Below, in pieces: positions 25,445 through 40,705 of a stretch of 64,000 bases of DNA. The DNA is taken from NCBI GenBank assembly GCA_027494135.1, contig JAOSJK010000001.1, positions 163,378 to 227,377 of the forward strand. The letters are read 5' to 3'. Position 1 is the first letter of the stretch. The number at the start of each line of letters is the position of its first letter. Made by a program: the position numbers and the translations under genes. This DNA is from Acidimicrobiia bacterium (GTDB taxonomy: Bacteria; Actinomycetota; Acidimicrobiia; IMCC26256; PALSA-610). Under the pieces are notes generated by a model. That model saw nothing but the letters and a program-made list of their open reading frames with translations, searched no databases and had not been told where the DNA came from.

Positions 25445-26755
25445 TACGAGCCCCCTCCGGCCGTCCACACCGAGCCTCCGGGGAACTCGAGCGCGTCGAG
25501 CGACTCCGGGAGCATCTCTATCGAGTAGCCCGGAGCCTCCGGCACCAGGTAGCGGCCCTGGCGCACCCGCACGGGGTCGAGGAAGTGCTCGTGGAGGTGG
25601 TCGGCGAACTCGGTCGTCCGATCGTCGAGCGGGGAGCCGAGCGCGACATGGTCGATGAGGGAGATGTGCTGCACGTACTCGCAGAGCCCCAGCCCGCCCG
25701 CGTGGGGGCAGACCGGCACTCCGAGCTTCGCCGCCATCAGCAGCACCGCGAGCACCTCGTTGAGACCGCCGAGCCTGCAGGCATCCACCTGGCAGTAGTC
25801 GATCGCGCCGACCGCGAGCAGCTGCTTGAACACGACCTTGTTCGGCGCGTGCTCCCCGGTCGCCACCCCTACCGGGGCGACGGCGCTGCGGATGGCGGCG
25901 TGGCCGAGCACGTCGTCGGGGCTGGTGGGCTCCTCGATCCAGCGCAGCCTGTAGGGCGCCAGGTGGCGCATCCAGTCGATCGCCTCCGGAACGTCCCAGA
26001 CCTGGTTCGCGTCGGCCATGAGATCGCGCTCCCAGCCGATCTCCTCGCGCATGACCTCGCAGCGGCGCACGTCACCCGCCACGTCGATGCCGACCTTGGT
26101 CTTGAAGCTCGTCCAGCCGGCGTCGATCGCCCTCTCCGCAGAGGCGGCGCACCTTCTCCTCCGGGTACCCGAGCCAGCCCGCCGACGTGATGTAGGCGGG
26201 GTAGCCGACTTCGCGCATCGCACCCTCGCGAGCCACCCTTCCCGGTGCCGCGGCGCGCAGGAGGTCGAGCGCCTCGTCGGGCGTGATCAAGTCGGTCAGG
26301 TAGCGGAAGTCGACCAATGACACGAAGTGCTCGGGAGTCAGGTCGGCTACGAGCTTCCAGACGGGCACGCCTTCGACCTTGGCCCACAGGTCCCACACCG
26401 CGTTGACGATCGCGGCGGTCGCCAGGTGCACGACGCCCTTCTCGGGCCCGAGCCACCGCAGCTGGCTGTCGTTGGTGAGCCGGCGGTGGAACGTGGCGAA
26501 GTCGCCGGTGATCTCGTCGAGGTCGCGACCTACGACGTGCGGGGCCAGGGCGTCGATCGCCGCGCAGACGACCTCGGTCCCCCTGCCGATCGTGAAGGTC
26601 ATGCCGTGGCCGGAGTACCCGTCGACATGATCGGTCACCAGCACTACGTACGCAGCCGAGTAGTCGGGGTCGCCGTGGACTGCGTCGGAGCCGGCGAGCG
26701 TCCGCGAGGTGGGTGCCCTCACGTCTCGCGTGCTGTACCCGGTGATCCGCGTCAA
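25444..26755 (-). pseudogene. L-fuconate dehydratase (enolase superfamily, MR/MLE), frame broken once
   Basis: (TTG)TRITGYSTRDVRAPTSRTLAGSDAVHGDPDYSAAYVVLVTD... is in ORF 26072..26962. ...ADANQVWDV...IEEPTSPDD...LGGLNE follows in ORF 25444..26223. The switch is near 26150. Confidence 0.85.
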
Positions 26756-29059
26756 GAGGTCGTGCCTTCCCAGCTCACTCGGTAGACGTCGCCGCCGTCT
26801 TCGGGGTAGTCGGTCTCGAGCGCGACGTTCGTGACCACGCACCGTTCGCGCGGGCGACGATCTCGTTCCCGGCGACCACCGTCGCCTCGTCGTCCCAGGT
26901 GAGAACGCCGATACGGCACCGCTCGAAGCGGTTGCCCGAGACGCGCGTGCCGGTGGCCCCACGCTCGATCAGGGCGCCGGTGTCGCAGCGGAACGCCGTG
27001 TTGCCCTCGACGGTGGTTCCGCTGCCGCCCTCGACGCCGATCCCGCGCATGGTGCGGCGCGCCTCGTTGCCCCGGACCACGGCATCCGACGAGTGCTGGA
27101 CGTGGATGCCGAACCAGCGCGTCTCGTAGCGGTTCCCTCGATCCGCGCCCCGGAGGTGCGCGAGACGCGGATGGCGCAGAGGTCGTCGCGGCAATCGTTT
27201 CCCTCCACTACGTGGCCGTCGCCGCCTGCCACGTCGATCCCCGCGCCCCAGCGCAGCCCCTGCTGCCGGTTGCCGGTCACCTCGACGCCGCTGGTGCCCA
27301 TGAGCCCGATGTTGCCGAGGTCGACCGAGTTCGCCGAGATCACGTGGCCCTCGCCGCCGCTGATCGCGATCGACTGCACCCGGCAACCGGTCACGGTCAG
27401 GGAGTCGGGTCCGCTCGCCACGATGCAGGTCGGAGGGAAGAGGAAGTACCCCGGCGAACCTCCGGTGACGGTGAGGCCGGAGAGCGTCGCGCCGGAGCCG
27501 ACCATGCGCACGACCACCCCACCTCCGGCGTCGAGGACCGCTTCTTCGGGGGCGACTCCGGGAGCGGCGCGCAGTGTCACACCCTCGGGGACGCTGAGTG
27601 GGAAGACCTCGGTGCCGGCGTCGTAGGTGCCCGCGCCGACCTCGACGACGTCACCTGGTCGGGCGCCATCGAGCGCGGCGCCTATCGACGCGCTCTGCTC
27701 TCCGTTGCGCGTCACTCTCCCGCCGGTCCGCCCCTCACTCACGACGACGGGTCCGCCCTCCGGCAGGAGGTCCACGCGGTACACCGCGCCGAGTGACGGG
27801 AGCGGCCCGGGGGCGAGCAGATGGAGGCCCTCGTCGCTCTGGCGGAACTCGACCGCGCGCCCATCGTCGCCCGTCACCGCCGTCACCCTGCCCGATGCGA
27901 GCCCGAGCCCCGAGAAGACGGCTGCCTCGTTCGAGTCGAGGTCGATCGCGTTGACCCTCGTAGCCCCACCGCTCGCGGCGCCGGGCGTGACCGTGTACCA
28001 GGTGCGCCCCGACCCCGGCACTCCGAACGGGCGGCTGCCGTCGATCGCGTCGGCGTGCGACGTCACCCACTCCCCTGCCTCACGCAGCACGCGCGCCTGG
28101 ATGTCGGGGATTGTGCCGTCGACCTTCGGACCGATGTTGAGCAGCAGGTTGCCGCCCTTCGCGACCACCTCGGTGAGCATCGCGACCACCTGCGGCGCGC
28201 TGAGGTAATCGTCGTCCTCCTCGACCTGGTTGAAGCAGAACGAGTGCCCCATTCCGCGGCAGAGCTCCCAGGGGCCGTCAGGCGTCTTCTCGGGGATCTC
28301 GTACTCGTAGGTGCGGAAGTCGGCATGCGACGCGAAGAAGCGGTCGTTGACGGCAGCGTCGATGCCGAGTCGCTGCGCGGCGGCGAAATAGTCGTCGACT
28401 ATCCGGTCGGAGCGCCAGTGCGCGGCCGAGTGCCCCCAGTGACCGTCGCCCCAGAGCACCGCCGGCTGATACCGCTCGACGAGCTCGGCGATCTGGGGCC
28501 GCATGAACGCGTCTACGTAGCCTTCGGGGTCCGGGTAGCTCGGGTGCGCCCAGTCGAGGAGCGAGTAGTAGGTGCCGTATACGAGGCCCGCCGCGCGCAC
28601 GGCCGTCGCGAGCTCCCCGACCACGTCTCGGTGCGGACCCTGGCGCACCGAGCTCCTGTCGGTCAGGGCGGTGTCCCACCAGCAGAAGCCGTCGTGGTGC
28701 TTCGTGACCATCACCACGTAGCCCATCCCCGCCGCAGAGGCGAGCCCCGCGTACTCGCCGGCGTCGAAGCGCTCGAAGGTCAGGTGCGGGATGAAGTCGT
28801 CGAAGGAGTAGCCCGGCCAGTGCTCCGCGTGCCAGGCCATCACCTCGGGGAGCGGCGACGTCGGGTGGAGGGCGACGTCGGCGCGCGGCTCCAGGTGCGA
28901 CCAGTACCAGTCGGCGTACTCGTGCACCGGCGAGAACGCCGGGACCGTCGCTATGTTCGCGTGGACGAACATGCCGAACCGCTTCTCCGCGAACCACCGC
29001 GGCTCCGGGTACCGGCGTGTCTCGCCATCGGCCGGGGGGCCTGTCACGTCGGGTGTCAT
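26752..29059 (-). pseudogene. GH29 alpha-L-fucosidase fused to a C-terminal right-handed beta-helix domain, frame broken twice
   Basis: FGMFVHANIATVPAF...KHHDGFCWWDT...GGNLLLNIGP marks GH29. Repeated G-x-x-V-x-G-N turns follow. The pieces are ORFs 26969..29059 and 26775..27386, with a last segment ...CVVTNVALETDYPEDGGDVYRVSWEGTTS*. Switches are near 27130 and 26860. Confidence 0.85.
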
Positions 29060-30143
29060 CCAAGGGCCTCCTCGGCCACAGCCTGCATCTGATCGGTCGC
29101 CTCACCCGGATCGATCTCACCGAGCAGAGCCCGGTGTAGCGCCAGCCAGCCGGCGTCCTCGATATCGGGGAACCTCGGAAGCGGAGGGTACGTGATCATC
29201 CCGCTGGCGATCGTGGCCCGGGTGATCTCCAGCCGGCGGGCGTCGACCTCGTCGACCGGTTCCTGCGCGGCGAGGACCTCCGCGTGGGCGCAGACCGCGC
29301 CGCTCGCGGCCTCCAGCTGGTTCGCCTCCGCAGACGCGAGATCCACGAGCAGTGCCCGAGCTCCGTCGATGTCGCCACACGTGGTCGGGATCGCCCAGGA
29401 GTGGCACCCCGCATACGACACGACGCCATCGGGACCACCTAGATAGGGGTGTGGCTCGAGCGATCCTCCGACGCGGGACCCGCGAAGCGCGCCAGTAGCG
29501 CCCGGCCACGCCGCCGCGACGGCGACCCGGCCGTCGCCGAGCGCCGCGTCGACGTCGTCGTAGTGCCAGTCGGGCTGTGACGAGGGCGCCCTGGCGCGAT
29601 GGAGACGAGCATCTCCACCGCTCTGCGCGCCTCATCGGTGCACAGCGTGGGACGGAGAGCGTCGTCGAAGAGCCGACCGCCCAGCGTCGTCACGACCTCG
29701 AAGAAGGTGCCGAAGAGGCCCGACTCGCGACCGGGGAGGCCGAAGACGAGCGGTGAGTCGAGCATCTGCACCCAGGTTGCGGGCACCGGTTCGGCGCCGC
29801 ACATGTCGCGGTTCGCCCAGAGGACCCGAACGTCGACGTTCCGAGGGACCGAGAGCAGCGGGCCCCGGAAGCGGCAGAGCTCGACCGCACGCGGCGAGAG
29901 CGGCCTCAGCACCGCGGGCTCGACCACGTGGTCGAGCGGCCTGAGCCACTCCGCCTGGGACGGCGCGTACTTCGAGTGGGTCGAGAGGACGTCGATCCGC
30001 TCTCCACGAGCCAGAAGGGCGGCGACGGCCCGGTTGAGGCTCGGGTGGTCGGAGTGGACTACCACCTCGACGTCGCGTCCGGAGAGCATCTCGTAGAGCC
30101 CGTCGTACATCGGACCGCCGACGAGCGCCAACCGCAGTGTCAC
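29056..30143 (-). pseudogene. periplasmic-binding-protein-like protein without signal peptide, frame broken
   Basis: (GTG)TLRLALVGGPMYDGLYEML... is in the frame of ORF 29439..30956. ...SYAGCHSWAIPTTCGDIDGARALLVDLAS... is in ORF 29056..29421. The family assignment is tentative. Confidence 0.4.
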
Positions 30144-30260
30144 GAGCCACCCCTCCCGCCTCGGCAGCCACCCCGACGGGCGGTCCGCGGACCCTAGTGC
30201 GACCCCGGGCGCGACGGTAGCGAGAGAATCGTGGGGCCTGCGGCGCGGTACCGTGCGCCC

Positions 30261-30722
30261 ATGCCCGGACGAGGTGACAAGACCGTCATCACCAACCGCC
30301 GCGCGCGACACGACTACACGCTGGGCGACACCTTCGAGTGCGGCGTGGTCCTTCACGGTGCCGAGGTGAAGTCGATCCGCGACGGGCGCGCGAACCTTCA
30401 GGACTCCTACGCGCGCGTCGACTCCGGCGAGGTCTGGCTCCACGGGATGCACGTGTCGCCGTACGCCTTCTCGCGCGACGATCTCGACCCGGTGAGGCCA
30501 CGCAAGCTGCTGCTCCACCGGCGCCAGATCGATGAGATCGAGAAGGCCACCGCCGAGAAGGGGGTCACGCTCGTGCCGCTGCGCGTCTACTTCAGCGACG
30601 GTCGTGCGAAGGTCGAGATTGCGGTGGCCACCGGGAAGCGCAAGTACGACAAGCGTCAGGCGATCGCCACCCGCGACGCACAACGCGAGACGGAGCGGGC
30701 GCTCAAGGAGTCGCACCGCTGA
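30261..30722 (+). CDS. smpB: SsrA-binding protein SmpB
   Basis: TNRRARHDYTLGDTFECGVVLHGAEVKSIRDGRANLQDSYARV...RKLLLHRRQIDEI. Confidence 0.95.
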   Translation: MPGRGDKTVITNRRARHDYTLGDTFECGVVLHGAEVKSIRDGRANLQDSYARVDSGEVWLHGMHVSPYAFSRDDLDPVRPRKLLLHRRQIDEIEKATAEKGVTLVPLRVYFSDGRAKVEIAVATGKRKYDKRQAIATRDAQRETERALKESHR

Positions 30723-32713
30723 CGGGTCCGCCTCCCGACGGCACACCCTCAGGACGCGCACGCACACCGGCCGGCACACCATCCGGACGCGCACGCACAC
30801 CGGCCGGCACACCATCCGGACGCGCACGCACACCGGCCGGAACCCCCTCCGGACGCGCACGCACACCAGCCTCCTCGGTGGGCTCGGGCGCGGCTTCGAC
30901 CGCGGGCATCGAGAGCGTGAACCTGCACCCCCGCCGGGTGCCTCGGTCAGCACCAAGCGGCCACCGAGGAGACCTGCGAGCTGCCGGCAGAGGTAGAGCC
31001 CGAGGCCCGTCCCCCCTGTCTCCGGGTGGACGACTGGTCGAGCTGCACGAAGCGCTGGAAGACCCTCTCGCGGTCCTCCGCCGGGATCCCGGGGCCCTGG
31101 TCGTCGATGGTGAAGAGGATCTCGGCGCCGGAGCGCGACGCGCGGACCTCGATCGGCCCGTCCGGGGCGTACTTGCCGGCGTTCTCCACCAGGTTCGAGA
31201 GGATCTGCTGGAGCTTGACCGGGTCGGTGACCACGGTCTCGATCCCCACACCCACAGACGCCGTTGCGCGCCCATCGGTCAGGCGCGAGGTGTCGCGCAC
31301 CACCTGCTCGAGGAGCTGCGCCACAGCGACGGGACGATGGTTGATCGCAACGGTGTCGTGCTCCGTGGAGGCAACGACGAGGAGCTCGTTGATCAACCTC
31401 TGCAGGCGGTCCCCCTGCTCCGAAGCGGTCTCCAGCAGCGCATGGCGCTTCTCGTCGTCGAGCCTGCCCTCCAGGCGCGTGATGGTGCCCATCCGCCGAG
31501 CATCACGGCAAGCGGCGTTCGGAGCTCGTGGGAGACTGCAGCGACGAAGTCGCCCTTCTGCTGGTTCAGGTCGACCTGACGGGCCAACGCCTGCTCGCGC
31601 TCCTCGTAGAGGCGGGCGTTCGCCGAGGTGAGAGAGGCCTGGCCCGCGAATGCCGCGAGCGTCTCGACCCTGCCGGCCGAGCTCCCGTCGTGCTTCCCCC
31701 TGCCTCCACACGGCGACGACGAGCGGTCCGGCCGCGTCCGGACGCGACGCTGCGGCCAGGAGGCTCTGCGCGTCGGGAATCGCTCTCGTGAGCGTGTCGG
31801 GTCCTCCAGGTTCTGCGTTGCCGCCGAGCGCGAGCTCGCAGTCCCCCGTCCGCCCCGCACTTCTGACGAGCTCGGCGACCAGCTCCGGAGGTGCGGGGCG
31901 CGTCCCGTGATCGTCTACGAGCGATCCCACCCAGGTGCCGCTCGTATCCGTCGAGCAGCACACCGCCGCCAGCCCGGTGCAGAGACTGCGAGCCTCGCCG
32001 GCAAGGAGACCGAGAGCCTCCTCGAATCCCGATAGCCGGGAGGTGCGGGCCGACGCCTCGTAGAGCCGCTCGAAGCGCAGGTGCTCGTCGCGCTGGGCGG
32101 CGGCGTGACGCGAGTTGAGAGCGACGGCGCCTACGAGAGGTACGAGGAGGAGTGGCAGCACGGGGTTCTGCCGGTAGAGCTGATAGGCGATCGGGCCCAG
32201 CGGCGCCGCGGCAAAGGTCATCAGAGCCGCTGTGGGCACGGAACGGACGAGCACGTCGTAGAAGGTCGCGCGCTCGACGATCGACAGCACCATCGCGGTC
32301 GCAGCGACGTCGATGAGCGAGAAGCAGAGCACGCAGGCGATGGCGGCGGCCCATGCGAGCGCGTCGCCGAAGTCGGTGCGACCGAGCGCCTGGAAGGCGA
32401 CGCCTGCGATCGTGACCGCAGCGAGCCGGTTGGTCACGTTGAAGAGCAGCTTCAGACCGGTGGTCCGCTCGGCGAGAAGTGCGACGGCCTCACCGACCGC
32501 CGCGGCGACCCCCGCGCCCACTGGACCTACCAGGAAGAAGGCGACCGGGAGGATGGTCTCGATCAACGTGAACGTGCACTTGTGGCGACGGAACTCGAGC
32601 CGCATGGTGAACGACCCACCCAGCGCGAACGCCACCGCGAGGATCGCGATGGTGCGCGCATCGCCGAGCGTGGAGCCCGCCCCGATGCTGAGGCGAGCGA
32701 AGCCGACTGCCAA
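30703..32713 (-). pseudogene. sensor histidine kinase: polytopic membrane domain, GAF, HisKA and HATPase; frame broken several times
   Basis: TTG 32713. The H-box FVAAVSHELRTPL is in ORF 31393..31860. LSNLVENAGKYAP and IDDQGPGIP are in ORF 30947..32713. ...CRFTLSMP is in ORF 30703..31275. Switches are near 31700, 31500, 31000 and 30950. The 3' end is uncertain. Confidence 0.8.
30740..30871. repeat. 33-bp tandem repeat x4 (GGCACACCATCCGGACGCGCACGCACACCGGCC)
   Basis: Units are at 30740, 30773, 30806 and 30839. The two central units are identical and the outer two are diverged. Confidence 0.9.
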
Positions 32714-32791
32714 GGCGGCCTCGAACGCGACCAGGAGCCCGATCCGGCTCCCGACGCTCCCCTAGCGGGCTACGGCGACGCGCCGCTCCAG

Positions 32792-34507
32792 CTACCCCCA
32801 GTCTGCAGCGTTCCACGACGCCGAGCTCCAACGGGTTGCCTCCCACATCTCGTCGGTCCAGCGTGTCGCCGCCCACTCCTCGTCGCTCCACCTGGTCGCG
32901 TTCCACCGTGTCGCACTCCAACGGGTTGCACTCCAACGGGTGGCGGCCCACTCCTCGTCACTCCACCGAGTCGCGCTCCAACGGGTCGCGCTCCAGCGAG
33001 TCGCGTTCCAGCGAGTCGCGTTCCAACGGGTGGCGGCCCACTCCTGATCACTCCAGCGGGTCGCGTTCCAACGGGTCGCGCTCCACCGCGTCGCCGCCCA
33101 CTCCTGGTCGCTCCAGCGGGTCGCGTTCCAACGGGTCGCGTTCCACCGAGTCGCACTCCACCGGGTCGCGTTCCACCGCGTCGCACTCCACCGGGTGGCC
33201 GCCCACGGCATCCGGTCTCTCAGGCCACGCCCGAGGCCGCCGAACGCGATCGGTTGACGCTGCCACCAGTCGCGCCGGGGCTCTGCCTGGTCGGCACCAT
33301 CAAGGCTGACCGCCAACGCGGAGCCATCCTCGATCGAGACCCCGCCGTCTATCAGCGCGCCCTTCAGATCGTCGGGCGTGGCCTCGGGGTGCAGCTGCAC
33401 GAGCGTCGCGAGCCCGCCGGCCACCAGCGCGGCGGCCATCGATGTGCCGCTCCCCCGGAAGTACGCGTCGCCGATGCGGCCCTCCGGGTGCTCGGTGTCG
33501 ATCGTCGACCCGGGCGCCCGTAGCGAGATCACGGAGACGCCGGGGGCCACGACGTCGGGCTTCGAGTAGCGACGGAAGTCCTCGCGCCCCGAGAACTCGG
33601 GGACGGCGTCGTCTGCGACGTCGGGCGTGCCGTTCGTGTCGGAGGCCCCGACGGTGACGATCCACGGGTCGCTCCCCGGCGAGGTGACGACGCCGTCGCC
33701 CTCGTTGCCGGCGGCTCCGACGACCGCGATCCCCGACGCCCAGGCCGCCTCTACGGCACCCGAGAGCGGGTTCGCCATGTAGGGCAGGTTGGTGTCGACG
33801 CCGAACGAGAGGCTCATGACCCGGATCTCGTACGCGTCGCGGTTGACTATCGCCCAACCGATTCCGGCGATGAGCTTCGACAGGGTCGTGCGACCGTCGG
33901 CGCCTGCGACCTTCACCGAGACGACGCTGGCTCCGGGAGCGACGCCGGTGTGCGGCACAGCGTCGCCTGCGCTCGCGCTGCCGTCACCAGCGATGAGACC
34001 TGCCATGAACGTGCCGTGCCCGTACCGGTCTACGCCGTCGCCCTCACCCGACAGGTCGGGGCCGCGGATCACGCGGCCCGCCAGGTCGGGGGCCTCGGCG
34101 ACGCCGGTGTCGATCAGCGCCACCCCGACACCGGCTCCGGCGTCGGCCGACCACCCGTCGGCAGGGTCGAGCGCCGAGAGCTGGAGGTCGTGGGAGGCGG
34201 GATCGAAGTCGCTGCCGGTCGCCTCGAGCACCATGTCGGGTGTCACCCGGAGGTCCGGGTCGGCCGAGAGCATCGCGAGCGCACGCGCATCGACCGTCGC
34301 GGCGACGCCGCCGACGAGGCCGAGATCTGCGTCGACGCGTCCGCCCGCGGCCGCCACCGCAGCAGCGGCGGCCCCCGAGTCGGATGCCTCGACGATCACG
34401 GCCTGGTCTGCGCCACCGCTCATGCGCGCGGCGGCCGGCGCTGCGATCAGCCCCGGGAGGAGCAGTGCGATTGCCGCCGCTGTCCGGCGGAGCGACGGGC
34501 GGTTCAC
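32792..34507 (-). CDS. secreted S8 (subtilisin-like) serine peptidase with a C-terminal Trp-every-5th-residue repeat tail
   Basis: Signal peptide MNRPSLRRTAAAIALLLPGLIAAPAAA. Catalytic triad contexts ALIDTGV, HGTFMAGLIAG and GTSMAAALVAG. The tail is WSATRWNATRW... Confidence 0.9.
   Translation of the reverse strand: MNRPSLRRTAAAIALLLPGLIAAPAAARMSGGADQAVIVEASDSGAAAAAVAAAGGRVDADLGLVGGVAATVDARALAMLSADPDLRVTPDMVLEATGSDFDPASHDLQLSALDPADGWSADAGAGVGVALIDTGVAEAPDLAGRVIRGPDLSGEGDGVDRYGHGTFMAGLIAGDGSASAGDAVPHTGVAPGASVVSVKVAGADGRTTLSKLIAGIGWAIVNRDAYEIRVMSLSFGVDTNLPYMANPLSGAVEAAWASGIAVVGAAGNEGDGVVTSPGSDPWIVTVGASDTNGTPDVADDAVPEFSGREDFRRYSKPDVVAPGVSVISLRAPGSTIDTEHPEGRIGDAYFRGSGTSMAAALVAGGLATLVQLHPEATPDDLKGALIDGGVSIEDGSALAVSLDGADQAEPRRDWWQRQPIAFGGLGRGLRDRMPWAATRWSATRWNATRWSATRWNATRWNATRWSDQEWAATRWSATRWNATRWSDQEWAATRWNATRWNATRWSATRWSATRWSDEEWAATRWSATRWSATRWNATRWSDEEWAATRWTDEMWEATRWSSASWNAADWG
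32795..33205 (-). repeat. 15-bp (pentapeptide) coding periodicity, 27 units W-x-x-x-x
   Basis: 28 Trp residues are spaced exactly 5 apart in the ORF 32792..34507 translation. Units are similar but not identical at the DNA level. Confidence 0.9.
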
Positions 34508-34938
34508 GCGGCGGCTCCCGAGAAGAAGTAGTCGAAGAAGTGCACGAACTCCTCAACGTTGAACGGCTTGGTGATGTAGTAGTCGGCGCCCGACTGCCAG
34601 CCTTCCCAGACGTCCTCGTCGGTCGCCTTCGCGGTGAGCAGGACCACCGGGATGTGCTGGGTCTGCGGGTCGCCCTTCAACTCGCGCAGGACCGTGTAGC
34701 CGTCTCGCCCCGGCATCATGATGTCGAGGACGATGAGGTCGGGCATGAGCTCGTGCGCTGCCACGACCGCGGCGTCACCGTCCTCGACGATGTGCACGTC
34801 GAAGCCCTCGGCGCCGAGGTTCATCTCGAAGAGGGTCCGCATTCCGGGCTCGTCCTCCGCGTACAGGATGCGGCCGGCGCGACGCGGGGAGTCTTCACGG
34901 GTGATCTCTGGGTCGCTCATCAGAGGGTTCTTCGACAC
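34504..34938 (-). CDS. stand-alone response-regulator receiver (CheY-like)
   Basis: RILYAEDEPGMR...PDLIVLDIMMPGRDG...PVVLLTAKA...YITKPF. Its stop overlaps the S8 GTG start (GTGA). Confidence 0.9.
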   Translation of the reverse strand: MSKNPLMSDPEITREDSPRRAGRILYAEDEPGMRTLFEMNLGAEGFDVHIVEDGDAAVVAAHELMPDLIVLDIMMPGRDGYTVLRELKGDPQTQHIPVVLLTAKATDEDVWEGWQSGADYYITKPFNVEEFVHFFDYFFSGAAA

Positions 34939-35152
34939 TCAGAGCGCGCACTCTTGAGCCATTCTGGGCTATGACCTCGTCCTGGTCGTAGATCTGACGA
35001 CTCTCCGTGGTCACCGTGCGCTCTCGAAATCGTATTAACGGCTCGTATGCCTTGTTATGCCTATATCCGGCATACCCGGTGGAGGAGGGCGAGCCCGCGG
35101 GCTCCCCAGGTCACCTCGGGGTGGGCCGCTGCACCGCTGCACCCTGTGAGGG

Positions 35153-36175
35153 GTGTGGCATGGTGGCCGCGTGAGCGGCCTCGCCCTCGCCGTAGCGGTC
35201 GCACTCGCGTTCGACCTCACGAACGGCTTCCATGATTCGGCGAACTCGGTGGCGGCCCTGGTCGCCACCCGCGCCGCGAGGCCGGCGGCGGCGATCCTGC
35301 TCGTCTCGGTCTTCTACATGCTCGGGCCCTTCCTCGCGGGCACTGCGGTGGCCGACACGGTCGGCGGCCTGGTGACGCTCGACGGGACTACCGCCATCAC
35401 GAGCGTCGGGGCGGCCCTGACCGGCGCGCTCGCGTGGAACCTGCTCACCTGGTGGCGCGGTCTGCCGTCGAGCTCGAGCCACGCGCTCGTGGGCGGGCTC
35501 GTCGGCGCTGCGATGGTCGAGGCGGGCGGAGGAGCAGTCCACTGGGGCGGCGTCGAAGGGCTCCGTCCTGCCGGGGTGCTCGGAGTACTCGCCGCGCTCG
35601 CGGTCTCGCCGCTCCTCGGCTTCGGGGCCGGCCTCCTGGGTGCGCGCGCTGCAAGGCGTGCGACACGTCGAGCCTCGGTGGCGATGCGGCGCTCCGTACT
35701 CCGCGCGGAGTGGTTCACGGCGTCGGCTCTGGCGTTCAGCAACGGGGCGAACGACGCCCAGAAGACGATGGGCGTGATCACCCTTCTCCTGGTCGCAGAC
35801 GGCCGGCTCGACACCTTCTCCGTACCCGTGTGGGTGAAGCTCGCGGCGGCGATCACCCTGACGTTCGGCACCAGCCTCGGAGGATGGCGGATCGTGCGGA
35901 CGGTCGGCGGTGGCATATACCGGCTCCGTCCGCTCGACGGCCTCGTGAGCCAGAGCGGCTCGGCGGCTGTCGTGCTCACGAGCGCGGCGATCGGGGCGCC
36001 GGTGAGCACGACCCACGTGGTCGCGTCGTCGGTGGTGGGGGTGGGAGCGGGGCAGCGTTGGCGGCACGTACGGTGGGCCGTGGTTCGCGAGATGGGGCTC
36101 GGCTGGTTGGTGACGTTGCCCGCGAGCGCCGCTCTCGGCGCAGCCGCGGTCCCCGTCTGGAGGTGGTTGGTGTGA
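35153..36175 (+). CDS. inorganic phosphate transporter, PiT family
   Basis: NGFHDSANSVAALVATR and NGANDAQKTMG duplicated signature motifs. GTG at 35171 is an alternative start. Confidence 0.9.
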   Translation: MWHGGRVSGLALAVAVALAFDLTNGFHDSANSVAALVATRAARPAAAILLVSVFYMLGPFLAGTAVADTVGGLVTLDGTTAITSVGAALTGALAWNLLTWWRGLPSSSSHALVGGLVGAAMVEAGGGAVHWGGVEGLRPAGVLGVLAALAVSPLLGFGAGLLGARAARRATRRASVAMRRSVLRAEWFTASALAFSNGANDAQKTMGVITLLLVADGRLDTFSVPVWVKLAAAITLTFGTSLGGWRIVRTVGGGIYRLRPLDGLVSQSGSAAVVLTSAAIGAPVSTTHVVASSVVGVGAGQRWRHVRWAVVREMGLGWLVTLPASAALGAAAVPVWRWLV

Positions 36176-36777
36176 AGCACTGGTTCCTACCCGACAGCCC
36201 CGACGTGATCGGTCTCCTGCTGCGCCAGGCCGACATCACGATCCACGGACTCGACGCGTTCGCAGCCTGGTCGTCGGGCGACGAGGCCGGGGCCCAGACG
36301 GTGCGCGACTGCGAGCACCAAGCCGACGACGCGCGCCGCGAGCTCCACCGCGCGCTTCGGGAGGCGTTCAGCACCCCGATCGACGCCGAGGACCTGTACG
36401 CGCTCTCGGAGCGGCTCGACGCCGTCCTCAACGGTGCGAAGAACGCGGTGCGCGAGTCGGAGGTCATGCAGATGCAACCCGACGCGCCGATGGCTGCGAT
36501 GGCAGCGGAGCTCGCCGGGGCCGTCGAGCACCTGCGCGACGCTCTGGCTGCTCTGCTCCGCGACGCCGACGAGGCGACGGCCGCCGCCGACGCCGCCATC
36601 CGGCGCGAGCGCGAGATGGAGCGGATCTACCGAAAGGCGATGTCGGACCTGCTCGATCAGGCGGAGCTGCGCGAGGTGATTGGCCGCCGAGAGCTGTACC
36701 GGCGCTACTCCCGCCTCGGCGAGGAGGTCGTGAGCGTCGCGGAGCGGGTCTGGTACGCCCTGGTGAAGGGCGGCTGA
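36172..36777 (+). CDS. DUF47/PhoU-like Pit accessory protein
   Basis: GTG 36172 overlaps the pit stop. All-helical, with ...HQADDARRELHRALREAFSTPIDAEDLYALSERLD... Confidence 0.8.
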   Translation: MKHWFLPDSPDVIGLLLRQADITIHGLDAFAAWSSGDEAGAQTVRDCEHQADDARRELHRALREAFSTPIDAEDLYALSERLDAVLNGAKNAVRESEVMQMQPDAPMAAMAAELAGAVEHLRDALAALLRDADEATAAADAAIRREREMERIYRKAMSDLLDQAELREVIGRRELYRRYSRLGEEVVSVAERVWYALVKGG

Positions 36778-36929
36778 AGCCGCCCTGATCCCCTGCGTGC
36801 CGCCCTGCCGAGCCGATCGCGGCTGGATGTGGGGGCTGCGGGAATCGATGTCCTCGCCGGGTTGTACGATATGGGGACCGAATCGGGGCACCTTCGCACC
36901 TGCCCCGGCCGGAAGCGACACATTGACAT

Positions 36930-37285
36930 GGGGGTGCGTGGCTTCGATTCTGGGAATCGAGGTGGGTGAAGCGAGCCGACGTCCCCGGAACGTCGTTAAA
37001 GAGCCGGGACCATAGATACTTGCCGAGGACAACCTCGCACTCGCTGCCTAGTCACTGACTAGCAGCGCGTCCGATCCGACCCAGCCGCTCGGTCGGGACA
37101 GGGCGCCATCTCGAGCGGCTAACCGGTGGGACGGGCCCCGTGGCCCACCGGGACATCACAGCGAGGCTGGGTCCGCCGCCGGGTGCCGATGCCCGACAGC
37201 GGACCGAGATCAATCACCGGCTGCGCTCGGAGAAGCCCCACTGAGAGCCTGGAAGACGCGGGTTCGACTCCCGCCACCTCCACGA
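36930..37285 (+). ncRNA. ssrA: tmRNA (SsrA)
   Basis: The 5' GGGGGTG pairs with the 3' CACCTCC, including the G3:U70 wobble. T-arm is GCGGGTTCGACTCCCGC. The tag ORF at 37022-37051, GCC GAG GAC AAC CTC GCA CTC GCT GCC TAG, encodes AEDNLALAA*. CCA is not encoded (CGA). Confidence 0.9.
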
Positions 37286-37300
37286 TTTCGAGACCTAAGT

Positions 37301-38170
37301 GGCTCTCCTGACATGTTTGTGGGTTAGTTCCGGCCGGGTAGGGCGGGCCGGTGACCGCCGAGGGCGAGCATGGCGAGGGCGATTAGGGCGGCGGGGTTCT
37401 TGAACCCGAAGGCGATGCGGGTGAGGAGCCGGATCTTGGTGTTGGTCGACTCGATGAGAGCGTTGGAGAGCTCGCTGTCGAGGGCTGCGTCGATCTCGGC
37501 GCGGTGACGCCGGATGGCTTGTTGAAGCTTCACGAACGCGGGGATCCGGCAGCGGCACGCCCAGGTGAGCCATCGGTCGAGCGCGTCCTTGCCGGCGTGA
37601 CCCTTGAGCTGGAACACGGTACGTAGACCTTCTTTGAGCAGGTAGGCGCGGTGCAGCCGTGGGTCGGTCTTGGCGATCCAGGCGAGTTTGGCGGCTTGGT
37701 GGTCGGTGAGGTTCTCGGGGTTCTTCCAGAGCGCGTAGCGGGACTGTTGCAAGGCGCGGGCCCGGTCGTGGCCTGGGCGGGGTGGAGCGTCACGACGGGG
37801 GCGGCCGCTTGGTCGGTGGCCTTCGCCGCGAGCAACGGCCCGGGCGTCGTTCCACGCGGCGCGGCGGACCTCGTCGAGGGCGTCGGTGGCCCACGCGACC
37901 ACGTGGAACGCGTCAGCGCACAGGATGGCGTTGGGGCAGTGGGTTCTGACCGCGTTGGCGATCCATGTCGCCGCGTCGGCGCTGACATGGGTGATCAACG
38001 CGCATCGCTCGGCGCCGACCAGCTCGAAGAACGTCGCGAGGGTGGCCTCGTCCCGGCCGACCGAGGCCCACACGAGCCGGCCCGTGTCATGATCGACGAC
38101 CACCGTCAGGTAGCGGTGCCCGCGCTTGTAGCTGATCTCCGAAGACGTCGGTGACGTATACAGCGGTGAG
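37301..38170 (-). mobile_element. ISL3-family IS remnant (5'-truncated), inserted ~15 nt after ssrA
   Basis: The terminal inverted repeat GGCTCTCCTGACATG begins at 37301. The transposase C-terminal ~270 aa are present. The upstream part is missing. Confidence 0.75.
37324..38170 (-). pseudogene. ISL3 family transposase, N-terminally truncated
   Basis: This is the C-terminal part of ORF 37324..39111: ISYKRGHRYLTVVVDHDTGRLVWASVGRD...CADAFHVVAWATDALDEVRR...NALIESTNTKIRLLTRIAFGFKNPAALIALAML. Confidence 0.8.
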
Positions 38171-38178
38171 ATCAAAGG
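38171..38178. repeat. 8-bp target-site duplication ATCAAAGG (left)
   Basis: It directly abuts the IRL GGCTCTTCGCGTTTGAGCGGGG. An identical octamer lies at 43242-43249. Confidence 0.8.
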
Positions 38179-38278
38179 GGCTCTTCGCGTTTGAGCGGGG
38201 TCGGGTAGGTCCGTAGGCGGTACAGGGGCTCTGCGAATCTGAGGGTGTCTTACGCCTTCGGATCCGGGGAGAGCCCCT

Positions 38279-39445
38279 GTGGAAGTTGACCCTACGCGCA
38301 TCTGCGAGCTGTTGGTAGGTCTGCCTGACGTGAACGTGCTCGGGGTGATCGACGAGTCGGGCGGCGTGTTGAGGGTCGTGATCGAGATCCGCGGTCCGCG
38401 TCCCGCGTGCGCACGGTGCGGGTGGCCGGCGCAGGTCAAGGACCGGCCGGTTGTCGAGCTCGTTGATCTGCCCTGCTTCGGTAGGTCTGTCCGGCTGGTG
38501 TGGCGCAAGCACCGTTGGGCGTGTGTCAACGGGTCGTGTCCGGTTCGGTCGTGGACAGGAGTGGACGTTCGGATAGCGGTGGCACGCTCCGCGATGACGG
38601 ATCGTGCGGGCCGGTGGGTGACCCGCCAGGTCGGTGAGCACGGCCGCACTGTGAACGAGATCGCCGGCGAGCTCGAGTGTGCCTGGCATACCGTCAACGA
38701 CGCGGTGAGGGCATACGGCGAGGCACTCGTCGATGACGACCCCGACCGGATCGGCGAGCCAACCGCACTCGGGTTGGATGAGACCCTGTTCGCACGGCTC
38801 GGCGAGTTCGGCCGGCAGCACTGGTCGACGTCGATCGTCGATGTACGCGCCGGCGTGCTGCTCGATGTCGTTCCGGGCCGCAGCGGCGCAGAACCGTGCC
38901 GGTGGCTCGCCACACGCAGTGATGCGTGGCTGGCGAACATCGCGTACGCGACGCTCGATCTGTCGGGGCCGTACAGGGCTGTGTTCGACACGATGACCCC
39001 CGACGCGATCCAGGTCGCAGATCCATTCCATGTCGTCAAGCTCGCGAACCAGAAGCTCGATGAGTGCCGCCGTCGAGTGCAGAACGAGACGTGCGGCCAT
39101 CGTTGCCGCAAGGACGACCCGCTCTACCGCTGCCGGCGGTTGTTGACCCGCGCCGATGAACGTCTCGACGAACACGGTCGCACGAAGCTGCTCGGGCTTC
39201 TCGACGCCGGTGACCCCCATGGCGAGGTGCGCACTGCGTGGCACGCGAAGGAGGTTGTACGAAGCATCTATGAGCATCACGATCCCGAGCTCGCAGGCGA
39301 GTTCGTCGACAGGCTCGGCCACGATCTCCAGGACCCGTCATGCCCGATTGAAGTCCGCTCACTTGGCCGGACCCTTCTGCGCTGGAAGGATCAGATCGCG
39401 GCGTGGCATCGCGCTCACGTGAGCAACGGGCCGACCGAAGCGGCG
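38279..39445 (+). pseudogene. ISL3 family transposase, N-terminal 389 codons (interrupted)
   Basis: ORF 38279..39568: ...CARCGWPAQVKDRPVVELVDLP...ADPFHVVKLANQKLDECRR...HVSNGPTEAA, after which unrelated sequence follows. Confidence 0.85.
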
Positions 39446-39631
39446 ATTATCAGGAGCGCTCGTCGGAGTGTCGTTGACGTCGTCGACGAGGCAGTTGAGG
39501 CCGTTGGGGAACGCGTTCTCTGGAGCGTGTCGTTGAGGTCCCCGATGTGGCGGGCGGCGTGGAGGTAGACATCGTCGTCCTTGGCCCGCACCTCGCTGGT
39601 CGACCAGCGGAGGTGACGGTGAGGGTGCAGC

Positions 39632-40705
39632 GTGGTGATGCCCGTGACGGGCGGCGAGTCGTGGACAGTGGTTGGTGACGACTGGATTCCTGTCGTGCCG
39701 GTCGAGCGCTATCTGGGGCATCTGGCCGGGATCGAACGGTCTCCGAACACGGTGCGCGCCTACGCCCACGGGTTGCGGTTGTGGTTCGAGTTCCTCGAGC
39801 GGCACGATCTCGCGTGGGACGCAGCGGGCATCGAGGATGTGTCTCGGTTCGTGGCGTGGCTGCGGGCGCCGGCGGACAACGTGATCGTGCTCGATGACAC
39901 CGCGGCGGTGCGGAGCGCGGCGACGGTGAACCGGCATCTGGCCGCCCTGTTCGGGTTCTATGACTTCCACGCCCGTTCTGGGGTGGGGTTGGCGGCGGAT
40001 CTGGTGGCGTGGCGGCGGGTGTCGCGGGGTTCCTACAAGCCGTTCTTGCATCACGTGTCGCAGGGCCGGCCGGTCGCTGCCCGGCCGGTGAGGTTACGTG
40101 TTGATCGCCGCCTGCCCGTGACGTTGAGCGTCGAGGAGATCGCTCAGATCTTGGCAGCGTGTGATCGTCTGCGGGACCGGTTCCTGTTCGCGTTGTTGGC
40201 CGAGACGGGGATGCGGATCGGTCAAGCCCCTCGGGTTGCGTCACAGCGACTTCGTGAGCCGCGAACGGACGGTGATGATCGTGCCGCGAGGCGACAACGC
40301 CAACGGCGCCCGAGCCAAGTGCACGTCGCCGGTGAGTGTGCCGGTGTCGGCGCCGCTGGTTCGGCTCTACAGCGACTACATGCACACCGAGTACGGCGCC
40401 CTCGATTCGGACTACGTGTTCGTCAACTTGTGGTCGGCACCGGTGGGTCGCCCGTTGCGCTATCAGGCAGTCGTCAAGCTCGTCGGCCGACTGCGGGCCC
40501 GCACGGGCATCGAGTTCAGCGCACACATGCTGCGCCATAGCCGAGCGACAGAGCTGATCCGTGGCGGTGTGGCGATCGAGATCGTCTCAAGTTGTTGACT
40601 CACCGGTCGGTGACCACGACCAGCGACGCTTACGTGCACCTCGACGTTGAGGATCTGCGCGCTGAACTGGTCCGAGCCGGCGCATGGGTGCCGGCCTCAT
40701 GTTGA
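39632..40705 (+). pseudogene. tyrosine recombinase (Tn554 TnpA-like), frame broken twice
   Basis: ORF 39632..40540 (...SPNTVRAYAHGLRLWFEFL...LLAETGMRIGQA), then ORF 40161..40598 (LGLRHSDF...FSAHMLRHSRATELIRGG), then a third frame (LLTHRSVTTTSDAYVH). Switches are near 40225 and 40590. Confidence 0.75.

What the first reader, a model, noticed from the sequence alone, without database searches (positions are those of the whole stretch)
32795..33205. S8 peptidase tail with tryptophan at every fifth residue, 28 times without a register break
The last 137 residues read WAATR WSATR WNATR WSATR WNATR WNATR WSDQE WAATR ... WSDEE WAATR WTDEM WEATR WSSAS WNAAD WG. The period is exactly five throughout. 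Basic ATR pentads are punctuated every 4-6 units by acidic SD(Q/E)E pentads. The DNA units are similar but not identical (alternative codons, S/N alternation), and the frame holds for about 410 nt in a sequence otherwise full of indels. This points to selection at the protein level, not slippage noise. A strict 5-residue aromatic period is reminiscent of pentapeptide-repeat beta-helices, but the consensus differs from A(D/N)LXX. I do not recognise it as a named repeat family. It could be a cell-wall/glycan anchor or a solenoid spacer for the protease.
Basis: seen in the sequence. Interest (0 to 1): 0.7.

Follow-up and report, generated by a model that had tools for sequence, protein, structure and literature searches.

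The report
Tryptophan-pentad tail on sensor-linked subtilase
A secreted bacterial protease ends in a real, strongly conserved tail with a tryptophan at every fifth residue; the tail matches no described repeat family, marks a large protease subfamily found in several phyla, and its gene almost always sits directly upstream of one particular membrane sensor gene, which points to an undescribed protease-sensor pair.

Summary
ORF 32792-34507(-) encodes a 571-aa S8 subtilase whose last 137 residues carry 28 Trp at exact spacing 5. The tail is not slippage noise. Among 120 close homologues, 1790 of 1808 period positions are W (14 are F), and only 2 proteins break register. In all, 272 S8-linked tails from Actinomycetota, Chloroflexota, Dormibacterota and Saccharimonadales share W-[ST..]-[GA]-[ST..]-[R/S/Q..]; only the Trp is invariant. 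Pfam, NCBIfam, PDB sequences and literature searches return nothing for the tail. AlphaFold2 gives no fold for it in two runs, so the pentapeptide-repeat beta-helix idea is not supported. New here: the gene is followed on the same strand by a signal transducer with one specific loop-poor 8-TM sensor domain in 57 of 58 evaluable metagenome loci. The output is a histidine kinase in this window and GGDEF/EAL in other lineages. My best reading (about 0.4) is a non-globular, multivalent Trp tether, analogous to the Nanog tryptophan repeat, that holds the protease at the membrane beside its sensor. The rivals are a tandem peptide precursor or self-substrate, a novel solenoid, and a glycan or substrate binder. 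The function is inferred, not shown.

The parts
34504..34938 (-). Stand-alone receiver-domain response regulator (144 aa). Its stop codon overlaps the S8 GTG start by 4 nt.
   Evidence: Pfam Response_reg, E 1.9e-25. ORF coordinates. The same gene lies upstream of the S8 gene in L001, L002 and many metagenome loci.
32792..34507 (-). Complete CDS of the S8 subtilase with the Trp-pentad tail (571 aa plus stop).
   Evidence: It is 100% identical to P0001.
34424..34507 (-). N-terminal signal peptide, about aa 1-28 (MNRPSLRRTAAAIALLLPGLIAAPAAAR).
   Evidence: Read from the sequence. AF2 gives a lone helix at 4-21 with low pLDDT. No dedicated signal-peptide predictor was available, so this is an inference.
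34208..34411 (-). Prodomain-like alpha/beta module, about aa 33-100.
   Evidence: AF2 gives pLDDT about 90-97 and strands/helices E35-40, H44-53, E57-62, E67-72, H74-82, E87-96. No Pfam hit, so calling it an I9-type prodomain is an inference.
33350..34138 (-). Peptidase_S8 catalytic domain (aa 124-386). D133, H164, S356 and N268 are invariant in 95 homologues.
   Evidence: Pfam PF00082, E 6e-40. Invariant columns. AF2 pLDDT >90. Closest solved structures are 9ues and 3afg.
33206..33349 (-). Conserved linker (aa 387-434) ending ...DWWQRQPIAFGGLGRGLRDRMP, which leads into the tail.
   Evidence: W414, Q416 and M433 are invariant and P434 is nearly invariant. The entry motif is visible in all homologues.
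32795..33205 (-). Trp-pentad tail: 28 Trp at spacing 5 in 27 full pentads, then the terminal WG.
   Evidence: No family, structure or fold match.
30947..32713 (-). Downstream sensor histidine kinase, frameshifted in this assembly. Further pieces lie in ORFs 31393..31860(-) and 30703..31275(-).
   Evidence: HATPase_c and HisKA hits. phmmer against the intact 680-aa L002 kinase matches three window ORFs.
31994..32710 (-). 8-TM membrane sensor domain ('SENSN', aa ~2-240 of the kinase). This is the conserved partner of the tail-bearing protease.
   Evidence: The local HMM scores the window ORF at E 4e-89. The topology model is N-in, C-in with short outer loops. Pfam gives only sub-threshold MASE9, E 0.04-0.36, on homologues.

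Best explanation
The tail is the C-terminal module of an active, secreted subtilase. It is a non-globular array that presents one tryptophan every five residues among small or polar residues (here W-[S/N/A]-A-T-R, with acidic pentads interspersed). It is the signature of a large subtilase subfamily. The gene for that subfamily is almost always followed by a gene for a signal transducer with one specific 8-TM, loop-poor sensor domain. In this window the transducer is a histidine kinase with a receiver protein upstream; in other lineages it is GAF-GGDEF(-EAL). I propose that the tail is a multivalent aromatic tether. Many individually weak Trp contacts would add up to hold the protease at the outer face of the cytoplasmic membrane next to its sensor. 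Those contacts could be with the lipid head-group interface or wall glycans, with other tails, and perhaps with the Trp-lined outer rim of the sensor. The protease would then act as the extracytoplasmic arm of a sensor that has almost no extracytoplasmic surface of its own. Trp number would set avidity, as in the Nanog tryptophan repeat. Shown here: the repeat and its frame; protein-level selection; an intact catalytic triad; cross-phylum conservation; the gene pairing; and the absence of any detectable known fold or family. Inferred: secretion, what the tail binds, and the direction and nature of the signal.
For: Conservation and selection. All 119 closest homologues carry the tail, with 8-28 pentads. 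W occupies 1790 of 1808 period positions, and F accounts for 14 of the 18 exceptions. There is no off-register W, 2 of 120 proteins break register, and 109 of 120 end with W plus one residue. Codons vary synonymously. Across 272 S8-linked tails there are 105 different dominant pentads, yet position 1 is always W and position 3 is mostly G/A/S. In the L167-type subgroup the 8 pentads all differ from one another but are conserved between orthologues, so the Trp spacing is maintained without repeat homogenisation.

Non-globular character. AF2 gives pLDDT 25-45 with an alignment and 46.7 with pTM 0.13 for the tail alone.

Surface context. The protein has a signal-peptide-like N-terminus and an intact triad. 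Hosts named by record title are Acidimicrobiia, other Actinomycetota (including a cultured Actinoplanes), Chloroflexota/Anaerolineae, Dormibacterota and Saccharimonadales.

Partner. The SENSN domain gene lies immediately downstream on the same strand in 57 of 58 evaluable metagenome loci. It is also downstream in 15 genome loci that were found only through the DNA pattern (TGG N12)x10. Because output domains swap (HisKA/HATPase 16, GGDEF+/-EAL 22), the constant partner is the membrane domain itself. Predicted topology leaves only short outer loops, with mean inner-loop charge +2.4 and outer -0.6. In the window no terminator lies between the receiver, S8 and kinase genes, and the receiver and S8 genes overlap by 4 nt.

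Avidity analogy. In Nanog, a W-every-fifth repeat mediates dimerisation whose strength scales with Trp number and falls sharply below eight (PMC5446312).

Membrane affinity. Wimley-White interfacial free energy is negative for 95% of 204 tails, with a median of -7.4 kcal/mol (the scale values were recalled from memory).
Against: There is no direct evidence for any binding partner. The window protein's own tail has a computed interfacial free energy of about +1.75 kcal/mol because of its acidic pentads, so simple membrane partitioning is not predicted for this member. Tail net charge does not covary with the charge of the sensor's outer loops (Spearman rho 0.04, n=66), which gives no support for a direct electrostatic tail-sensor contact. 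Trp-pentad arrays also occur in another S8 subfamily, between the prodomain and the catalytic domain, with no sensor gene next to them in the short contig available (P0138/L203). The array is therefore not intrinsically tied to the sensor. One locus (L198) has three tandem S8 genes and no sensor directly downstream. One host MAG is labelled Acidobacteriota (L102). Low AF2 confidence cannot distinguish disorder from a fold that is absent from its training data.
Confidence: 0.4

Rival explanations
1. Tandem peptide precursor or self-substrate. The protease, or a partner, cuts its own tail at each Trp or Arg and releases pentapeptides. These act in or at the membrane on the downstream loop-poor sensor, giving an autocrine, quorum-type or protease-activity signal.
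For: The protease-sensor pairing is near-universal. The sensor has almost no extracytoplasmic surface, so a membrane-active or small ligand is plausible; the same argument was made for MASE9 in 10.1101/2021.11.05.467447. The unit length is exact, and pentads are lineage-specific yet homogeneous within a protein. From my own knowledge: subtilisins favour large hydrophobic P1 residues, and Bacillus Phr pentapeptides are released by subtilisin, Epr and Vpr.
Against: In the L167-type subgroup the eight pentads all differ and are conserved individually, so they cannot yield one common peptide. The conserved entry (MPW) and exit (SW.S..WG) caps and the interspersed acidic pentads are not explained. 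Arg is absent from many lineages. P0138-type arrays lie N-terminal of the catalytic domain and have no sensor nearby. No processing data exist.
Confidence: 0.15
2. A regular solenoid, either a pentapeptide-repeat-like beta-helix or a beta-turn spiral with stacked Trp, that serves as a rigid spacer or stalk.
For: The period is strictly 5. With W placed as the central residue i, many pentads read [A/V/S/T](i-2)-[N/R/T](i-1)-W(i)-x-[G/A/S](i+2), which resembles A(D/N)LXX; examples are ANWAG and VNWGS. Position 3 is mostly G/A, which suits turns. Orthologue-conserved distinct pentads suggest defined environments for each unit.
Against: No tail type hits PF00805. The single significant hit, WGSVN against Pentapeptide_2 (the XNXGX PPE-MPTR repeat), is compositional. 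AF2 predicts no strands and gives very low confidence in two runs. Acidic pentads recur at irregular intervals of 4, 6, 5 and 2 units, which does not fit a fixed 4-pentad coil. Copy number varies from 6 to 37.
Confidence: 0.1
3. A substrate- or glycan-targeting module. The Trp array would work like the aromatic platform of a carbohydrate-binding module and direct the protease to an external polymer, such as another organism's wall, EPS or an insoluble substrate, rather than to the producer's own envelope.
For: Trp in a small-polar context is typical of sugar-stacking surfaces (my own knowledge). The array is portable within S8 enzymes: it is C-terminal here and N-terminal of the catalytic domain in P0138, P0139 and P0157. 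Long Trp-pentad arrays also occur in other extracellular proteins, namely the InlB-B-repeat protein P0133 and the adhesion GPCR ectodomain P0121.
Against: It does not explain the near-obligate pairing with a membrane sensor. No CBM or wall-binding family is detected. No folded platform is predicted.
Confidence: 0.12
4. Functionless low-complexity expansion: a 15-nt slippage-prone repeat that is tolerated at the end of the gene.
For: It is a tandem DNA repeat with variable copy number. Expansion in whole units preserves register without any selection.
Against: The tail is retained across at least four phyla and 272 proteins with invariant Trp. When Trp is replaced, it is replaced almost only by Phe. 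Codons vary synonymously. Non-homogenised pentads are conserved between orthologues. Conserved caps sit at both ends.
Confidence: 0.03

Closest known systems
Nanog tryptophan repeat (WR), mammalian pluripotency factor
   Same: It is a simple repeat with Trp at every fifth residue and small polar residues between. The Trp residues are the functional elements. Association strength scales with Trp number and drops steeply below eight (PMC5446312). The bacterial tails have 6-37 Trp, median 14.
   Different: It is eukaryotic, nuclear, about 10 pentads long and attached to a homeodomain. There is no sequence homology or shared ancestry. Self-association of the bacterial tail is untested. This is an analogy of pattern and possibly of mechanism, not family membership.
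Pentapeptide repeat proteins (Pfam PF00805; right-handed quadrilateral beta-helix, e.g. MfpA, Qnr)
   Same: Tandem 5-residue period, with small residues at the positions flanking a central hydrophobic residue.
   Different: The central residue is Trp rather than Leu/Phe. There is no PF00805 hit at E<=10, no beta-helix in AF2, and the tail is extracytoplasmic and attached to a protease.
Non-covalent surface-anchoring repeats of Gram-positive enzymes (choline-binding repeats, GW modules, WxL, SLH, LysM)
   Same: They are C-terminal, aromatic-rich tandem repeats of variable copy number on secreted enzymes of single-membrane bacteria. This comparison rests on my own knowledge.
   Different: Those are folded units of 20-80 residues with known ligands. 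None is detected here, and the unit here is only 5 residues with no predicted fold.
Protease-transducer pairs and accessory-dependent intramembrane sensors (LapG/LapD; BceS with BceAB, LiaS with LiaF)
   Same: An extracytoplasmic protein is encoded next to a membrane signal transducer that has c-di-GMP or kinase modules. The transducer itself has little or no external sensing surface. Details of the comparators come from my own knowledge.
   Different: LapG is a cysteine protease of diderm bacteria and LapD has a folded periplasmic domain. No homology was detected to any of these. The direction of signalling here is unknown.
MASE9 membrane sensor domain (PF20972)
   Same: It is a promiscuous polytopic N-terminal domain found in front of GGDEF-EAL and other outputs, and its ligand binding has been proposed to occur within the membrane (10.1101/2021.11.05.467447). 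The partner domain gives weak hits to it.
   Different: The hits are far below the gathering score (11-14 bits against 24.3). The partner domain is better treated as an unassigned MASE-like domain.
Mycosins (T7SS-associated S8 proteases, TIGR03921)
   Same: This is the best-scoring NCBIfam model for the catalytic domain. Mycosins are actinobacterial envelope-associated subtilases.
   Different: The score is 128 against a cut-off of 278.75. There is no C-terminal transmembrane anchor and no ESX genes are nearby.

Membership tests
Peptidase S8 (subtilase) | Match to the Peptidase_S8 profile above the gathering score | tested here: met
   PF00082, 137.8 bits against a cut-off of 21.8, aa 124-386.
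Peptidase S8 (subtilase) | Asp-His-Ser catalytic triad plus oxyanion Asn | tested here: met
   D133, H164, S356 and N268 are invariant in 95 aligned homologues.
Pentapeptide repeat proteins (PF00805) | Tandem repeats with a period of five residues | tested here: met
   28 Trp at exact spacing 5.
Pentapeptide repeat proteins (PF00805) | A(D/N)LXX consensus (central Leu/Phe) recognised by the family profiles | tested here: not met
   The window tail has no Pfam hit at E<=10. None of 10 tail types hits PF00805; Pentapeptide_4 gives only 11.7-14.7 bits against a cut-off of 38.
Pentapeptide repeat proteins (PF00805) | Right-handed quadrilateral beta-helix fold | tested here: inconclusive
   AF2 predicts no strands, with pLDDT 25-45 and 46.7 with pTM 0.13. 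Low confidence cannot exclude an unfamiliar fold.
Pentapeptide_2 (PF01469, PPE-MPTR XNXGX repeat) | Profile match above the gathering score | tested here: not met
   The window tail has no hit. Only the distant WGSVN tail of L035 hits (74.1 bits), which looks like a compositional N-x-G match.
Nanog-type tryptophan repeat | Trp at every fifth residue in a polar, low-complexity context | tested here: met
   The definition is taken from PMC5446312.
Nanog-type tryptophan repeat | Trp-dependent homo- or hetero-dimerisation | not testable with these tools
   It needs AUC, pull-downs or W-to-A mutants.
Nanog-type tryptophan repeat | Common descent or shared context with Nanog (C-terminal of a homeodomain) | tested here: not met
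   The repeat here sits on a bacterial secreted S8 protease, and no homeodomain was detected.
Known Gram-positive wall-binding repeats (CW_binding_1, GW/SH3b, LysM, SLH, WxL) | Match to any of the family profiles | tested here: not met
   Pfam and NCBIfam scans of the whole protein and of the tail at E<=10 return only S8-type models.
Mycosin (TIGR03921) | Score above the equivalog cut-off | tested here: not met
   128 bits against 278.75.
MASE9 (partner sensor domain) | Profile match above the gathering score | tested here: not met
   11.2 and 14.3 bits against 24.3 for L005 and L010, and no hit for L002.

The most novel reading that the evidence does not exclude
The Trp-tail subtilase and the 8-TM domain together form a previously undescribed protease-coupled transmembrane signalling device of Actinomycetota, Chloroflexota, Dormibacterota and Saccharimonadia. 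In this reading the tail is a tethered, membrane-interfacial ligand or handle for the loop-poor sensor. Its occupancy, displacement or cleavage by the attached protease would convert the state of extracellular proteolysis (substrate load, cell density or envelope state) into histidine-kinase or c-di-GMP output.
Probability: 0.2. Interest if true: 0.85.

Novelty: new variant of a known kind. Interest (0 to 1): 0.7.

Why it matters
The tail would define a new, easily recognisable extracellular repeat type: W every fifth residue, seen here in 272 S8-linked examples. It would also define a conserved two-gene module, protease plus 8-TM sensor, in poorly studied but environmentally abundant lineages such as Acidimicrobiia, Chloroflexota, Dormibacterota and Saccharimonadia. 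It would supply a concrete candidate partner for one membrane-embedded (MASE-like) sensor domain, a class whose signals are mostly unknown. It would also make testable how single-membrane bacteria keep a secreted protease at the surface without a sortase signal or a transmembrane anchor. The convergence with the Nanog tryptophan repeat suggests a general physical principle, in which avidity is set by the number of evenly spaced Trp residues. That principle could be studied in a simple bacterial system; one cultured host exists, Actinoplanes sp. NPDC051343.

Tried and rejected
1. Chance or a wrong frame is rejected by the 100% identical database protein and by tail-bearing homologues.
2. Membership in a known family is rejected for the tail. 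Pfam, NCBIfam and PDB sequence searches were empty. Ten other tail types were tested, and only a compositional Pentapeptide_2 hit appeared, for the WGSVN tail.
3. Structure prediction was run twice and gave no fold. I therefore ran no fold search, since matches to a low-confidence model would be meaningless.
4. Literature searches for Trp pentapeptide repeats, Trp-Arg ladders, Trp-rich subtilase tails and the literal peptide strings found only the Nanog repeat as an analogue and nothing on bacteria.
5. A Trp-Arg cation-pi ladder as the general principle is rejected, because Arg is missing from many lineages, for example WSGST, WTGNT, WVPSD and WAGAN.
6. N-glycosylation sequons (NAT in WNATR) are not conserved in homologues, which mostly read WTASR or WTATR.
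7. Charge complementarity between the tail and the sensor's outer loops showed no correlation (rho 0.04).
8. Simple membrane partitioning, estimated with the Wimley-White scale, is favourable for most tails but not for the window's own tail.
9. Many tail-only hits in the 1.84-billion representative library are translations of eukaryotic satellite DNA (WNGME, WSGVE, WSEVK), and I discarded them.
10. A word-based search with the sensor domain found only 10 proteins, so I used a local HMM on the fetched loci instead.
11. The sensor as a sorting enzyme (exosortase- or CPBP-like) was considered. I rejected it by inspection: its conserved residues include no Cys or His motifs, and it is fused to signalling outputs.
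Full report
OBSERVATION

The minus-strand ORF 32792..34507 (GTG start, 571 aa) ends in 137 residues that read WAATR WSATR WNATR ... WSSAS WNAAD WG. A script confirmed 28 Trp, all TGG, at spacing exactly 5 from W435 to W570. The other 434 residues hold only 6 Trp. Twenty pentads are W[S/N/A/E]ATR and five are acidic (WSDQE x2, WSDEE x2, WTDEM). Each of the first four acidic pentads is followed by WAATR. At the DNA level the array has period 15 with 20.9 copies and only 70% matches, plus a 60-nt higher-order unit. Arg, Thr and Ala each use three or four synonymous codons across units while the amino acids stay constant. A 100% identical protein is on record as 'S8 family serine peptidase [Acidimicrobiia bacterium]' (P0001).

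THE PROTEIN

Pfam finds a Peptidase_S8 domain at aa 124-386 and nothing else. NCBIfam gives only sub-threshold subtilase models, the best being mycosin at 128 bits against a cut-off of 278.75. The tail alone matches no Pfam or NCBIfam model at E<=10. In an alignment of 95 homologues the catalytic residues D133, H164 and S356 and the oxyanion N268 are invariant. So are W414, Q416 and M433 in the linker that leads into the tail. AlphaFold2 with that alignment models the N-terminal helix (a signal-peptide-like segment), a prodomain-like alpha/beta module (aa ~33-100) and the catalytic domain at pLDDT >90. The tail comes out at pLDDT 25-45 with no secondary structure. The tail plus linker folded alone gives pLDDT 46.7 and pTM 0.13. 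PDB sequence search finds ordinary subtilisins for the core (best 9ues and 3afg) and nothing for the tail.

THE TAIL IS A FAMILY FEATURE

All 119 other best homologues carry the same kind of tail. They are 53-79% identical, come from metagenomes and from Acidimicrobiia or Actinomycetota MAGs, and are often labelled 'AprX'. The tail follows a conserved entry (...WWQ[RH].P.AF.GLG....MPW), and most end in SW[PN]S..WG. Over these 120 proteins, 1790 of 1808 period positions are W, 14 are F and 4 are other residues. No off-register W occurs inside a tail, two proteins show a register break, there are 8-28 pentads, and 109 proteins end with W plus one residue.

A tail-only phmmer search of 1.84 billion cluster representatives gave 871 hits at E<=1e-3. 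Of the 149 new proteins among the best 150 hits, 60 carry the S8 core according to a local HMM. Two more (P0138, P0139) are S8 enzymes with the array on the N-terminal side of the catalytic domain. Many of the remainder are translations of eukaryotic satellite DNA.

It showed that long in-frame W-x4 ORFs with a recognisable domain are S8 peptidases. By record title they come from Acidimicrobiia, other Actinomycetota (Frankiales, Acidothermus, Nitriliruptoraceae and a cultured Actinoplanes sp.), Chloroflexota/Anaerolineae, Dormibacterota and Saccharimonadales, plus one MAG labelled Acidobacteriota.

Across 272 S8-linked tails there are 105 different dominant pentads, with 6-37 Trp in register (median 14). 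Position 1 is always W. Position 2 is mostly S/T/D/A, position 3 G/A/S, position 4 S/T/V/A and position 5 R/S/Q/N/T. Arg is therefore not universal, which removes a Trp-Arg ladder as the general principle.

One distant subgroup (L167-type) is informative. It has eight mutually different pentads (WVPSD WY.ST WEV.R WNRV. WYGND WPG.. W.GS. WYG...) that are conserved between orthologues. The Trp spacing is thus kept by selection even where repeat homogenisation is not operating.

A CONSERVED PARTNER

In the window, a stand-alone receiver protein (34504..34938) overlaps the S8 start by 4 nt. A membrane histidine kinase follows the S8 stop (30947..32713, frameshifted in this assembly). No terminator-like site separates the three genes. 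The same order recurs in L001 and L002: PilZ on the opposite strand, then receiver, S8, kinase and a MinD-like protein.

Comparison across loci showed that what is conserved downstream of the S8 gene is the kinase's N-terminal ~240-aa polytopic domain, not the kinase core. In Chloroflexota (L005) and another actinobacterial lineage (L010), that same domain is fused to GAF-GGDEF or GAF-GGDEF-EAL instead. I built an HMM of the domain ('SENSN', from 10 seeds) and applied it to 80 metagenome loci retrieved through the S8 core. Of 58 loci with at least 600 nt downstream, 57 have a SENSN gene on the same strand. The outputs are HisKA/HATPase in 16, GGDEF with or without EAL in 22, and cut off by the contig end in 19. 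Among genome loci found only by the Trp-period DNA pattern, 15 also have SENSN downstream, including the Dormibacterota and Saccharimonadales examples.

Pfam gives only sub-threshold MASE9 hits for the domain. MASE9 has been described as a promiscuous membrane sensor thought to bind its ligand within the membrane (10.1101/2021.11.05.467447). An alignment of 67 SENSN domains indicates about eight TM segments with N-in/C-in topology. Mean inner-loop charge is +2.4 and outer-loop charge -0.6, and the outer loops are very short and often end in Trp.

WHAT IT MOST LIKELY IS

The data show an active, secreted-type subtilase with a selected, non-globular, Trp-periodic tail, encoded in an operon-like unit with a sensor that has almost no external surface. 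The simplest mechanism that uses all of this is a multivalent aromatic tether. It would keep the protease at the outer face of the membrane beside its sensor, with avidity set by the number of Trp.

The closest published precedent for a W-every-fifth array is the Nanog tryptophan repeat. There the Trp residues mediate homo- and heterodimerisation, and strength scales with Trp number and collapses below eight (PMC5446312). This is an analogy, not homology.

Supporting but weak: Wimley-White interfacial free energy is negative for 95% of 204 tails, with a median of -7.4 kcal/mol. Against: the window's own tail computes to +1.75 kcal/mol, and tail charge does not covary with sensor outer-loop charge (rho 0.04). 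Trp arrays also exist in another S8 subfamily without an adjacent sensor in the one short contig available. I put this explanation at about 0.4.

RIVALS

(a) Tandem peptide precursor or self-substrate feeding the sensor (0.15). It is attractive because of the pairing and the exact unit length. It is weakened by the heterogeneous but conserved pentads of the L167 type, by the caps and by the acidic pentads.

(b) A novel solenoid or PRP-like helix (0.1). Many pentads can be read as [small]-[N/R/T]-W-x-[G/A], but no PF00805 signal and no AF2 fold were obtained.

(c) A glycan- or substrate-targeting module (0.12). This is compatible with the array's portability, but it does not explain the sensor pairing.

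(d) Neutral low complexity (0.03). This is contradicted by the conservation data.

NOVELTY

Neither the tail nor the protease-SENSN pairing is covered by Pfam (2025 copy), NCBIfam release 20, PDB sequences or the open-access literature that I could search. Absence from these sources is not proof that it has never been described. I rate it a new variant of a known kind: a tandem-repeat extension on a secreted enzyme, and an accessory protein plus membrane transducer. There is a real chance, about 0.2, that the pair is a distinct protease-coupled signalling device.

LIMITS

Secretion, localisation, tail conformation, binding partner and signalling direction are all inferred. The SENSN HMM and the topology model are my own constructions from fetched loci. 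The Wimley-White values were recalled from memory. Taxon labels are those of the deposited MAG records.

Noticed in passing
window 30739-30871: A 33-nt tandem repeat (4.0 copies, 94% matches). It encodes (GVRARP[E/D]GVPA)n in ORF 30703..31275(-), which appears to be the out-of-frame C-terminal continuation of the frameshifted histidine kinase.
   Followed up: partly
window 30703-32713 (-): The sensor histidine kinase is split over at least three reading frames (30947..32713, 31393..31860, 30703..31275), whereas homologues have a single ~680-aa ORF (L002). This is either assembly indels or a pseudogene. The neighbouring S8 gene is intact.
   Followed up: partly
L002 9509-10468: The gene after the kinase encodes a MinD/ParA-like protein (sub-threshold TIGR01968 hit) that carries its own short pentapeptide repeat, (VATNG)x4, near the N-terminus. 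No homologue was detected in window 26001-40000.
   Followed up: no
L203 123-1697 (protein P0138; also P0139, P0157): A different S8 subfamily carries 25 Trp pentads (WDASQ/WDGSQ) between the prodomain and the catalytic domain instead of at the C-terminus. The next gene is convergent and no SENSN domain is present in the 3.3-kb contig.
   Followed up: partly
protein P0121 (1154 aa, metagenome-derived): A eukaryote-type adhesion GPCR (GPS motif plus 7tm_2) has 93 consecutive Trp pentads (WNGQV/WNGLV) in its ectodomain, just before the autoproteolysis site. This is an independent occurrence of a very long W-x4 array on an extracellular receptor.
   Followed up: no
protein P0133 (1226 aa); L098 (Thermoplasmata MAG, 490-aa ORF); L067 (1441-aa ORF): Three further long ORFs carry in-frame Trp pentads without a detected S8 core: WNANV x39 on a protein with InlB B-repeat domains, WDSSG x16 in an archaeal MAG, and WSNPN x13.
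   Followed up: no
proteins P0123, P0140, P0148, P0177, P0259, P0262 and others: Many 'proteins' in the 1.84-billion representative library that match the tail are translations of eukaryotic satellite-like DNA (WNGME, WSGVE and WSEVK runs, often starting at residue 3). They inflate hit counts for any W-x4 query.
   Followed up: partly
L198 840-10420: Three S8 genes lie in tandem, two with WNSVN tails (8 and 17 Trp). This is the only evaluable metagenome locus without a SENSN gene directly downstream; a GGDEF gene lies about 2.4 kb further on.
   Followed up: no
L102 (record title Candidatus Angelobacter, Acidobacteriota): One tail-bearing S8 (WSGQS x11) sits in a MAG assigned to a diderm phylum, unlike all the other hosts. 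This may reflect binning contamination or horizontal transfer. The downstream region is cut off.
   Followed up: no
window 30231-30722 (+) and 35153-36777 (+): The flanking genes are ordinary: smpB on one side, and a PHO4-family phosphate transporter plus a PhoU-like (DUF47) protein on the other. The PilZ gene found upstream of the receiver in L001 and L002 was not detected in window 26001-40000.
   Followed up: partly
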